A stretch of 46,566 nt of DNA from Escherichia coli (GCF_003334355.1 NZ_QOWP01000029.1), one strand, 5' to 3'. Positions 1-3,000 are shown, numbered from the stretch's first letter. Program-made: the numbers.

Positions 1-3000
1 GGACAGAATGATGCATTCCGCTACCCGCAGGGCGTTAAGCTCGATCAGGAAAACAGCCGTATTTTTCTGCCGAAACTTGGCTGGATGCGCTACCGGAATA
101 GCCGTCAGGTTACGGGAGTTGTGAAAAATGTCACTGTCAGCCAGTCCTGCGGTAAGTGGTACATCAGTATTCAGACTGAAAATGAAGTATCAACTCCGGT
201 TCACCCTTCAGCATTAATGGTCGGACTGGATGCTGGCGTGGCTAAACTCGCCACGCTGTCAGATGGCACAGTCTTTGGGCCTGTAAACAGTTTTCAGAAA
301 AACCAGAAGACGCTGGCGAGACTTCAGCGACAGTTAAGCCGCAAGGTCAAATTCAGCAACAACTGGCAGAAGCAGAAACGCAAAATACAGCGACTGCATT
401 CCCGTATCGCAAATATCCGCAGGGACTACCTTCACAAAGTCACAACGACCGTCAGCAAAAACCACGCAATGATAGTCATTGAGGATTTGAAGGTCAGCAA
501 CATGTCAAAGTCAGCAGCGGGTACGGTCAGCCAGCCGGGGCGCAATGTCCGGGCAAAATCAGGTTTAAACCGTTCGATACTGGATCAGGGCTGGTATGAA
601 ATGCGCCGCCAGCTTGAGTACAAGCAGCTCTGGCGTGGCGGTCAGGTGCTTGCTGTTCCGCCAGCGTACACAAGCCAGCGTTGCGCGTGCTGTGGTCATA
701 CAGCGAAAGAAAATCGCCTGTCACAAAGTAAATTCAGATGCCAGGCATGTGGATATACAGCGAACGCTGATGTAAATGGCGCTCGTAACATTTTAGCGGC
801 GGGGCACGCCGTTCTTGCCTGTGGAGAGATGGTGCAGTCAGGCCGCCCGTTGAAGCAGGAACCCACCGAAATGATTCAGGCGACAGCCTGAACGTAGCAG
901 GGATCCACGTCCTTCAGGGCGTGGAGGATGTCAACACATCAGTATGGTTTCACCCCAGGCACTGGAAGCCAGACGTAAGGTCATCAAAGAGACAATCCTT
1001 AGCTGGCTTTTGGTTGACCCGTCATCTACCGCGCACGAATAAAACTGCCATCCGGCTGGCGGGTGAACAGGACCTGTTGATTATTCCCCGTATCAATGGT
1101 TAAGCCCGTCACCACGCCGCTGGCGTTCTGGCGGATTTTCACCATCTGCCCGTTTTGCAAATTACTCAGCGGCTTACCCGCGCCTTCTACCTGCGCCATT
1201 GCATAGACATCGGTAGCGGGCAGTCCGTGGTCGCGGAACAGCTGCGCCATCGTTTTACCGGGTTCGACACGGTAAGAGCGCCATTGATTATCAATTCCGC
1301 TATCTGGCTGGAATGGTTGCGTTTGGGAAGTTTGCGGCTGCTCTTCTGGCTGGCCTTCCTGTATAGGTTCTGGAGCGACCGGAGCCACCTGATCAGGATC
1401 ATTTTGTGGTGTGACTAATTGCGCCCGCAGCTGTTCTTCTGTCGGCGGTTGTGATTGCGACTGAATATCTAACTGCGCTTCACGCGTCACCACCGGCGCG
1501 TTGGGCGTATCATCAGATGGAAGCAGAAATCCGACCACCAATACAATGGCGGCAATAATGATCCCCCGACGATGCATCGGCGGCAGCGGGTCCATGAAGC
1601 GAAAATTGTCCGGCGCGTGCCAGACTTTCTCCAGGGTTGGTTTTAGTTCAAAGCGCCCGGGCATGGTTTCCTCCTGCTCCGCGTCTTGTTCCTCAATCAT
1701 AGCCTATGAATAAGCTAACGCTATGATGTCCGTGGTAAACCCGCCTTTATTATATTCATACGGGATATTGCTATTGTTTCTTTTTCCCCGGGATTTGTCA
1801 TCATTCCTGCGACAAAGTTTTACCCAAAGAAGTGTGGCTGATATGCTGCCCGCTACTTTTATACCCTAAGAAAGGAAATACGATGACCACCCCAACTTTT
1901 GACACCATCGAAGCGCAAGCAAGCTACGGCATTGGTTTGCAGGTAGGGCAACAACTGAGTGAATCTGGCCTGGAAGGGCTGCTGCCAGAAGCACTGGTTG
2001 CAGGTATTGCCGATGCGCTGGAAGGCAAACATCCGGCTGTTCCGGTTGATGTGGTGCATCGCGCACTGCGTGAAATCCACGAACGCGCCGATGCCGTTCG
2101 TCGTCAGCGTTTCCAGGCGATGGCTGCTGAAGGTGTGAAATATCTTGAAGAAAATGCCAAAAAAGAAGGTGTGAACAGCACCGAATCTGGCCTGCAATTC
2201 CGCGTGATCAACCAGGGTGAAGGCGCAATTCCGGCACGTACCGACCGCGTTCGTGTTCATTACACCGGTAAACTGATCGACGGCACCGTGTTTGACAGCT
2301 CCGTTGCTCGTGGTGAACCCGCTGAATTCCCGGTTAACGGCGTGATCCCTGGCTGGATTGAAGCACTGACTCTGATGCCGGTAGGTTCTAAATGGGAACT
2401 GACTATCCCGCAGGAACTGGCATATGGCGAGCGTGGCGCAGGCGCGTCCATCCCTCCGTTCAGCACCCTGGTGTTTGAAGTCGAACTGCTGGAAATCCTC
2501 TAAGCAGCGCATTCTGTTCCCCTCGAACCAGAGGGGAGCAGGCATGCAGCAATAAACCCTTCAGTTTGCCAAACGGCGCTATTTTGTGTTGCAAAGACCC
2601 CGTAAGCGTGTATTTTTGTGAGCTGTTTCGCGTTATCACCGTGATATGACACTCACTTTAAACATAAAATTAACATTAGATCTAAATCTTAGTATTCATC
2701 CCGCGTATTGTTACCTAATATCGATGAGTCCCGATACAGATTCGTCGTATCATAGACTGACTAAAGGCCGTAGAGCCTGAACAACACAGACAGGTACAGG
2801 AAGAAAAAAACATGGTAGATCAGGTAAAAGTCGTTGCCGATGATCAGGCTCCGGCTGAACAGTCGCTACGGCGCAATCTCACAAACCGACATATTCAGCT
2901 TATTGCCATTGGCGGTGCCATTGGTACGGGGTTGTTTATGGGGTCCGGCAAAACGATTAGCCTTGCCGGGCCGTCGATCATTTTCGTTTATATGATCATT

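What the first reader, a model, noticed from the sequence alone, without database searches (positions are those of the whole stretch)
2546..2811. cycA 5' region with a CA-rich segment just upstream of the start codon
A 266-bp non-coding region precedes cycA. The sequence aacaacacagacaggtacaggaagaaaaaaacATG just upstream of the start is CA-rich, consistent with the kind of site targeted by the GcvB small RNA on amino-acid transporter mRNAs. This suggests post-transcriptional control at the cycA ribosome-binding region.
Basis: partly seen in the sequence, partly recalled or inferred. Interest (0 to 1): 0.2.

Follow-up and report, generated by a model that had tools for sequence, protein, structure and literature searches.

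The report
Known GcvB target site on cycA
The stretch just before the E. coli cycA start codon is the published, experimentally mapped site where the small RNA GcvB pairs to reduce translation of this glycine/alanine/D-serine transporter, so the finding is correct but already known.

Summary
The window is an E. coli chromosome (a non-K-12 strain). cycA starts at 2812. The quoted sequence is present exactly at 2780-2811 and is identical to K-12.

GcvB with Hfq represses cycA about 2-fold by pairing at the ribosome-binding region. Compensatory mutations at cycA -24/-25, -29 and -30 (window 2788/2787, 2783, 2782) support this (Pulvermacher 2009; Stauffer & Stauffer 2012; Sharma 2011; RIL-seq, CLASH and MAPS as compiled by Miyakoshi 2021).

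Two corrections:
- The non-coding gap is 308 bp (2504-2811), not 266 bp. It holds a hairpin after fklB, a promoter and CRP region, and an inferred leader of about 84 nt.
- CA-richness alone is weak evidence. The tract is 59% A, and 45 places in the window are as C+A-rich. Pairing with the GU-rich R1 seed is no better than shuffles.

The exceptional feature is an 18-nt block, 2786-2803, that includes the Shine-Dalgarno sequence. It is perfectly complementary to GcvB 153-161 (R3) and 137-145 (R2) (z = -3.4, 0 of 500 shuffles).

The R1 and R3 sites are nearly invariant in 64 other Enterobacterales cycA leaders. Interest is low.

The parts
2514..2541 (+). Hairpin after the fklB stop codon (arms CTGTTCCCCTC / GAGGGGAGCAG, 6-nt loop), with no T-run after it. 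It is a possible fklB 3' end or stabiliser structure and is not part of the GcvB site.
   Evidence: Inverted repeat, 91% complementary. No canonical intrinsic terminator was found in 2400-2900.
2614..2635 (+). Candidate CRP site (TGTGA gctgtt TCGCG, core 2617-2632), centred about -103.5 from the inferred transcription start.
   Evidence: Read directly from the sequence. PMC8948829 places a predicted CRP site at -93 to -114 from the start and reports a gel shift of the cycA regulatory region by pure CRP. Assigning that site to these coordinates is my inference.
2716..2721 (+). Inferred -10 box TAATAT of the cycA promoter. The transcription start would be about 2728, giving a leader of about 84 nt (2728-2811).
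   Evidence: TA(A/C)TAT followed by CGATG is conserved among Enterobacteriaceae leaders. The position agrees with the published CRP site offsets. Not verified with 5'-end mapping data.
2765..2778 (+). Small conserved hairpin directly 5' of the target tract (AGGC cgtaga GCCU).
   Evidence: It is the only structure in the RNAalifold consensus of 65 leaders. The outer pair is AU 32, GC 13, GU 6, UA 2; the second pair is GC 53, AU 9. A manual arm table supports it. The stem is very short (consensus -1.6 kcal/mol), so support is modest.
2780..2789 (+). C/A-rich R1 site AACAACACAG, which pairs with GcvB nt 73-82 (UUGUGUUGUU; 9 Watson-Crick pairs plus 1 G-U).
   Evidence: Register fixed by the published compensatory pairs U79:A(-29) and G80:C(-30). 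Hybrid -10.6 kcal/mol, or -5.2 after opening costs. ACAACAC is nearly invariant in Enterobacteriaceae. Not better than shuffles.
2786..2794 (+). R3 site ACAGACAGG, which pairs perfectly with GcvB nt 153-161 (CCUGUCUGU).
   Evidence: Nine Watson-Crick pairs; -13.9 hybrid and -9.8 net kcal/mol. The 9-mer is unique in the window, with 0.22 expected. The published cycA -24GG / gcvB +159CC compensation maps to A2788:U159 and C2787:G160. AGACAGG is nearly invariant across genera.
2794..2803 (+). R2 site GUACAGGAAG, which includes the Shine-Dalgarno AGGAAG (2798-2803). It pairs with GcvB nt 137-146 (CUUCCUGUAC).
   Evidence: Ten Watson-Crick pairs; -14.5 hybrid and -8.7 net kcal/mol. The published gcvB +142CA change falls in this helix. 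The full-length site is seen only in the Escherichia/Citrobacter-like leaders sampled; elsewhere it is shortened to ACAGGAA.
2804..2810 (+). A-tract between the Shine-Dalgarno sequence and AUG. It can pair with the GcvB U-run at nt 129-134. Together with AGGAAG it forms four A-R-N triplets, a candidate Hfq distal-face motif.
   Evidence: Duplex prediction. The published gcvB +131CC change lies in the U-run. The Hfq-motif reading is inference from the sequence only.
2812..4224 (+). cycA coding sequence (470 aa).
   Evidence: ORF list and RefSeq annotation of identical DNA.

Best explanation
Window 2780-2811 is the translation-initiation region of the E. coli cycA mRNA and the mapped target of the Hfq-dependent small RNA GcvB. 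When glycine and other amino acids are plentiful, GcvA activates gcvB. GcvB then pairs with the unstructured tract just upstream of, and across, the Shine-Dalgarno sequence. It uses any of several redundant seeds:
- R1 (nt 73-82) pairs with AACAACACAG (2780-2789).
- R3 (nt 153-161) pairs with ACAGACAGG (2786-2794).
- R2 (nt 137-146) pairs with GUACAGGAAG (2794-2803).
- The U-run pairs with the A-tract.

Pairing blocks 30S binding and lowers CycA synthesis about 2-fold. This closes a negative feedback loop on glycine uptake. Shown by others: GcvB and Hfq dependence, the target region, and compensatory base changes. Shown here: the exact helices, their statistical strength, accessibility and conservation. 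Inferred: 30S occlusion as the molecular step in E. coli, the transcription start near 2728, and the Hfq A-R-N site.
For: - Identity: the window is E. coli, and the leader is identical to K-12 from 2547 to the ATG.
- Pairing strength: cycA -27..+4 with GcvB 122-162 gives -30.4 kcal/mol. Shuffles give -18.7 +/- 3.4, so z = -3.4, with 0 of 500 shuffles as good. The site is among the top 10 or so of 9304 50-nt windows on both strands of the 46.5-kb window.
- After opening costs: R3+R2 together -17.5, R3 -9.8, R2 -8.7, R1 -5.2 kcal/mol.
- Accessibility: the target tract is predicted mostly unpaired. No conserved structure covers it.
- Published mutations: cycA -24/-25, -29, -30 and gcvB +79, +80, +131, +142, +159 all fall in these helices with the correct partners (against 39, 49).
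- Conservation: ACAACAC and AGACAGG are nearly invariant in 64 other Enterobacterales cycA leaders.
- Within E. coli: the 76-nt leader segment is at least 99% identical in 5110 of 5325 matching genomes. gcvB is present in 5426 of 5426 genomes.
- Literature: PMC3658540, PMC9299463 and PMC8948829.
Against: - The regulatory effect is small, about 2-fold.
- The R1 pairing, which the CA-rich argument points to, is statistically indistinguishable from shuffles and unremarkable in the window scan.
- gcvB is not in this window, so its sequence in this particular strain was not seen.
- My energies use the K-12 GcvB as proxy for all species.
- Duplex models ignore Hfq.
- 30S toeprint inhibition on cycA was reported for Salmonella in a paper I could not read (Sharma 2011, cited).
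Confidence: 0.95

Rival explanations
1. The C/A- and A-rich tract is mainly a translation enhancer or ribosome standby site that sets high basal CycA synthesis. GcvB pairing would be a secondary, modest modulation. This reading is compatible with the main explanation rather than exclusive of it.
For: - The cycA -24GG change lowered expression about 5.5-fold independently of GcvB.
- C/A-rich and ACA motifs act as translation enhancers in other GcvB targets (title and abstract of PMC3879156, and the title of Sharma 2007, seen).
- The tract is predicted unpaired and is conserved.
Against: Enhancer activity of the cycA tract itself has not been dissected. A G-rich substitution could also lower expression by creating new structure. 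Enhancer function does not explain the perfect 9- and 10-nt matches to GcvB R3 and R2.
Confidence: 0.35
2. Another regulator acts at the same tract instead of, or in addition to, GcvB. One candidate is CsrA on the GGA motifs (CAGGU, CAGGAAG). Another is a different Hfq-dependent small RNA.
For: Two GGA-containing motifs lie at 2791-2803. Four A-R-N triplets at 2798-2809 fit an Hfq distal-face motif (inference). No direct data were found.
Against: The literature I read names only GcvB (with Hfq) as post-transcriptional regulator of cycA. Nothing tested here points to another partner.
Confidence: 0.1
3. The composition is a chance feature of an AT-rich intergenic region and has no regulatory role.
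For: Equally C+A-rich 32-nt stretches occur at 45 places in the window. The R1 duplex is no better than shuffles.
Against: The sequence is nearly invariant across genera while its flanks diverge. The R2 and R3 complementarity is far beyond shuffles. Genetic evidence is published.
Confidence: 0.01

Closest known systems
GcvB-cycA interaction in E. coli K-12 and Salmonella (Pulvermacher et al. 2009; Sharma et al. 2011; Stauffer & Stauffer 2012, PMC3658540)
   Same: It is the same gene and the same leader sequence: identical to K-12 over 2547-2811. The helices are the same, and all published mutations map onto them.
   Different: Nothing of substance. This is another E. coli strain, about 98.5% identical to K-12 over the window.
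Canonical GcvB R1 targets with C/A-rich elements (dppA, oppA, gltI, argT, sstT, yifK; Sharma 2007; Yang 2014, PMC3879156)
   Same: A C/A-rich tract upstream of, or at, the ribosome-binding site of an amino-acid transporter mRNA. It is complementary to the GU-rich R1 and requires Hfq.
   Different: cycA does not depend on R1. It is regulated redundantly through R1, R2 and R3, and is described as perhaps the only mRNA that uses R2. Here the R2 and R3 pairing is much stronger than the R1 pairing.
sRNAs with several seeds for one target (for example DsrA on hns and rpoS, cited)
   Same: More than one region of a single sRNA contributes to regulating a target.
   Different: In cycA the seeds compete for overlapping parts of one 24-nt tract, and each is sufficient on its own.

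Membership tests
Direct GcvB target mRNA (Hfq-dependent translational repression) | Complementarity to a GcvB seed at or near the ribosome-binding site, beyond chance | tested here: met
   R2/R3 region: -30.4 kcal/mol, z = -3.4, 0 of 500 shuffles, and among the top 10 or so of 9304 windows. The 9-mer ACAGACAGG is unique in the window, with 0.22 expected. R1 alone is not beyond chance.
Direct GcvB target mRNA (Hfq-dependent translational repression) | Target tract accessible (single-stranded) in the mRNA | tested here: met
   Predicted unpaired probabilities are mostly 0.3-0.99 over -31..+5. Opening cost is 1.5-2.7 kcal/mol. No conserved helix covers the tract. This is prediction only; there are no probing data.
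Direct GcvB target mRNA (Hfq-dependent translational repression) | Target site conserved in species that carry GcvB | tested here: met
   ACAACAC and AGACAGG are nearly invariant in 64 other Enterobacterales leaders. The median R3 duplex is -15.5 kcal/mol. GcvB sequences of those species were not retrieved; the K-12 GcvB was used as proxy.
Direct GcvB target mRNA (Hfq-dependent translational repression) | Partner sRNA present in the same genome | tested here: inconclusive
   gcvB is not in the window. It is present in 5426 of 5426 complete E. coli genomes, at least 99% identical in 5390. Its presence in this strain is therefore almost certain but was not seen.
Direct GcvB target mRNA (Hfq-dependent translational repression) | GcvB- and Hfq-dependent change in expression, with compensatory base-pair mutations | not testable with these tools
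   Published for the identical K-12 sequence: about 2-fold repression, lost in hfq and gcvB deletion strains. Compensatory pairs are cycA -24GG with gcvB +159CC, -29G with +79C, and -30T with +80A.
C/A-rich translational enhancer element | C/A-rich or ACA-repeat tract immediately upstream of the Shine-Dalgarno sequence | tested here: met
   AACAACACAGACAG at 2780-2793 is 86% C+A and contains ACA three times.
C/A-rich translational enhancer element | The tract raises translation independently of the sRNA | not testable with these tools
   Only indirect evidence: the cycA -24GG mutant is 5.5-fold lower with or without GcvB.
Any curated cis-regulatory RNA family (Rfam 15) | Match to a covariance model | tested here: not met
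   No match in 2450-2950, even at E <= 10. No match at gathering thresholds in this region.

The most novel reading that the evidence does not exclude
Two details may not be in the literature I could read.

(a) GcvB carries a second copy of its anti-Shine-Dalgarno heptamer CUUCCUG at its extreme 5' end (nt 2-8). This copy is predicted largely unpaired and could pair with the cycA CAGGAAG (-8.8 hybrid, -6.4 net kcal/mol). It might explain the residual repression that remains after R1 and R2/R3 are mutated.

(b) A short hairpin at 2765-2778, with compensatory changes across genera, sits directly 5' of the target tract. It may help present the tract, or bind Hfq or RNase E.
Probability: 0.15. Interest if true: 0.2.

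Novelty: already known. Interest (0 to 1): 0.07.

Why it matters
CycA imports glycine, D- and L-alanine, D-serine and the antibiotic D-cycloserine. GcvB control of cycA closes a feedback loop on glycine uptake, because glycine induces gcvB through GcvA. It is also the standard example of one sRNA using redundant seeds on one target.

No new biology follows from it. The practical lesson is that CA-richness by itself is a poor discriminator. Here, seed complementarity plus cross-genus conservation provide the evidence.

Tried and rejected
- Full-length RNAduplex of GcvB against -80..+30 gave an unrealistically long duplex (-59 kcal/mol), because intramolecular structure is ignored. I replaced it with region-restricted duplexes, shuffles, a window-wide background and opening-energy corrections.
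- RNAfold of the E. coli leader predicted a long-range helix, GAGCCUGA (2774-2781) with UCAGGCUC (2845-2852), enclosing the RBS. It is absent from the RNAalifold consensus of 65 leaders, and the partner lies in a variable part of the coding sequence. I rejected it as a conserved feature.
- The simple promoter scan proposed GTGATA-18-TAAAAT at 2641-2670. It scores 9 of 12, and 0.6 such sites are expected by chance. I preferred the conserved TAATAT at 2716-2721.
- MAFFT alignment A2 did not keep the small hairpin in register because loop lengths differ. I therefore relied on A1 with RNAalifold and a manual arm table, and did not run the count of structure pairs.
- Pulvermacher 2009 and Sharma 2011 are not held in the library. 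Their content is cited second-hand from PMC3658540 and PMC9299463.
- PMC11347164 (GcvB and RNase E) does not mention cycA.
It happened not to return Salmonella or Klebsiella.

Full report
**What the window is**

A megablast of 2300-3100 matches 5,416 of 5,426 complete E. coli genomes. The match is annotated fklB followed by cycA. The whole window aligns with K-12 MG1655 4427053-4473618 at about 98-99% identity. Exceptions are the first ~935 bases and two K-12 segments that are absent here. fklB is 1883-2503 and cycA is 2812-4224. Between 2504 and 2830 the window differs from K-12 only at 2529 and 2546. Everything published for the K-12 cycA leader therefore applies to this sequence.

**Checking the observation**

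- The quoted string is at 2780-2811, followed by ATG at 2812.
- The non-coding gap is 308 bp (2504-2811), not 266 bp. Position 2546 only marks the end of a hairpin behind fklB, at 2514-2541.
- The 32-nt string is 59% A and 19% C. Only 2780-2793 is truly C/A-rich.
- Such composition is common: 45 places in the window are at least as C+A-rich over 32 nt.

**Anatomy of the gap**

The features, in order:
1. The fklB 3' hairpin at 2514-2541, with no T-run and no canonical terminator.
2. A CRP-like site, TGTGA-N6-TCGCG, at 2617-2632.
3. A -10 box, TAATAT, at 2716-2721, conserved among Enterobacteriaceae.

The -10 box places the transcription start near 2728. The CRP site then spans -114..-93, exactly the offsets that Hook et al. 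give for their predicted CRP site. They report that pure CRP shifts this regulatory region (PMC8948829). The start site, and hence the 84-nt leader, is my inference.

In the leader, a 5'-proximal stem-loop (about 2723-2748) is predicted in E. coli. Its arms differ between genera in the alignment. A small hairpin at 2765-2778 is the only element in the RNAalifold consensus of 65 leaders. From 2780 to the AUG the RNA is predicted open. Rfam has no family here, even at E <= 10.

**Pairing with GcvB**

I took GcvB (206 nt) from MG1655.

| Target region | GcvB region | Energy (kcal/mol) | Shuffled controls | Window-wide rank |
|---|---|---|---|---|
| cycA -45..+5 | R1 region (nt 60-95 for the energy and shuffle test; nt 63-92 for the window scan) | -19.6 | z = -0.2, 200 of 500 as good | 1791 of 9304 |
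| cycA -27..+4 | nt 122-162 | -30.4 | -18.7 +/- 3.4, z = -3.4, 0 of 500 | among the best ten or so |

The helices are:

| Site | cycA sequence (window) | GcvB nt | Hybrid / net (kcal/mol) |
|---|---|---|---|
| R3 | ACAGACAGG (2786-2794) | 153-161 | -13.9 / -9.8 |
| R2 | GUACAGGAAG (2794-2803), includes the Shine-Dalgarno AGGAAG | 137-146 | -14.5 / -8.7 |
| A-tract | 2804-2810 | U-run 129-134 | not computed on its own (R2 plus the U-run together: -16.3 / -10.4) |
| R1 | AACAACACAG (2780-2789) | 73-82 | -10.6 / -5.2 |
| R3+R2 on one GcvB | 2786-2803 | 137-161 | -25.2 / -17.5 |

These values come; net values include opening costs. The 9-mer ACAGACAGG occurs once in the window, against 0.22 expected.

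**Agreement with experiments**

Stauffer & Stauffer 2012 (PMC3658540) report the following:
- Two GcvB regions, +73..+82 and +124..+161, are complementary to the same part of cycA mRNA.
- cycA -8..-26 is required for regulation.
- Repression is about 2-fold and needs Hfq.
- Either GcvB region suffices on its own.

Their compensatory pairs fit my helices base for base:
- cycA -29G with gcvB +79C corresponds to A2783:U79.
- cycA -30T with gcvB +80A corresponds to C2782:G80.
- cycA -24GG with gcvB +159CC corresponds to A2788:U159 and C2787:G160.

Their +142CA and +131CC changes fall in the R2 helix and the U-run. Miyakoshi et al. (PMC9299463) list cycA as a verified target present in RIL-seq, CLASH and MAPS sets and regulated redundantly by R1, R2 and R3. 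They note that R2 may be used only for cycA. Hook et al. reproduce the gcvB effect and the glycine response with their own fusion.

**Conservation**

A degenerate DNA pattern for the CycA motif NLTNRHIQLIAIGG returned 120 loci from species-representative genomes. Of these, 66 begin MVD or MVE like E. coli CycA, and 64 distinct leaders were aligned with the window.
- ACAACAC and AGACAGG are nearly invariant in Enterobacteriaceae, while neighbouring positions and the leader upstream vary.
- The median R3 duplex with the E. coli GcvB is -15.5 kcal/mol.
- The full R2 site is confined to Escherichia/Citrobacter-like leaders.
- Kosakonia/Phytobacter-like leaders lack UACAGGAAG, so CAGACAGGA is itself the Shine-Dalgarno region.
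- Within E. coli, the 76-nt segment around the site is at least 99% identical in 5110 of 5325 matching genomes. gcvB is in all 5426 genomes.

**Mechanism**

GcvB, made when GcvA is activated by glycine, pairs with Hfq's help to the open tract over and upstream of the Shine-Dalgarno sequence. This pairing blocks initiation. Redundant seeds make the control robust to single mutations.

The same tract probably also promotes translation. The -24GG mutant is 5.5-fold down independently of GcvB, and C/A or ACA motifs act as enhancers in other GcvB targets (PMC3879156 abstract). Occlusion of the 30S subunit on cycA is inferred for E. coli; others cite it for Salmonella.

**Verdict**

The only refinements are the size of the gap, the weak diagnostic value of CA-richness, and the dominance of the R2 and R3 pairing over R1. 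Side observations are listed separately and are minor.

Noticed in passing
window 2765-2778: A small hairpin, AGGC-cgtaga-GCCU, lies directly 5' of the GcvB target tract. It is conserved in 64 of 65 Enterobacterales cycA leaders, with changes on both sides of the stem: UGGC/GCCA, GGGC/GCCC, and GAGC/GCUC in Serratia, Pectobacterium and Brenneria. The loop always ends in AGA. Its function is unknown. The stem is only 4 bp, so the evidence is modest.
   Followed up: partly
GcvB (L001 298-304, i.e. GcvB nt 2-8) against window 2797-2803: The GcvB 5' end repeats the R2 anti-Shine-Dalgarno heptamer CUUCCUG. It is predicted mostly unpaired and could pair with the cycA CAGGAAG (-8.8 hybrid, -6.4 net kcal/mol). 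It is a possible fourth redundant seed, and I did not see it mentioned in the papers I read.
   Followed up: partly
window 2634-2646: A 13-bp palindrome, TATCAC-C-GTGATA, lies in the cycA promoter region about 82-94 bp upstream of the inferred start. It may be a transcription-factor site. Its conservation was not checked.
   Followed up: no
window 2723-2748: A 5'-proximal stem-loop of the inferred cycA leader (CGAUGAGUC...GAUUCGUCG) is predicted in E. coli. The arm sequences differ between genera in a way that looks compensatory, for example UCCUG/CAGGA and CCCUU/AGGG. The alignment there is too gapped to count pairs.
   Followed up: no
window 85-891 (+): An ORF of 268 aa matches the C-terminal two-thirds of an IS200/IS605-family TnpB (InsQ) RNA-guided endonuclease (NF040570, E = 1.7e-79, profile positions 147-388). 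This region (window 1-935) has no counterpart in K-12, where yjfZ and ytfA lie. A strain with an identical cycA region carries a frameshifted insQ there.
   Followed up: partly
window about 10374-10379 and 20040-20169: Compared with K-12, the window lacks the ytfI segment (K-12 locus 10444-11668) and the chpS-chpB toxin-antitoxin segment (K-12 locus 21346-21979). These are strain-level presence/absence differences.
   Followed up: no
window 9445-9567, 12919-12976, 13056-13098, 22082-22160, 28323-28400, 38449-38564: Rfam matches at gathering thresholds: ES239 sRNA, STnc450, ES036, two naRNA4 (REP-derived) elements, and the Mg2+ riboswitch upstream of mgtA. All are expected for this E. coli region.
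   Followed up: no
window 36275-36284 (+): A second exact copy of the R2-complementary 10-mer GTACAGGAAG occurs in the window. In K-12 the treC gene lies on the opposite strand in that region. This is probably chance and was not examined.
   Followed up: no
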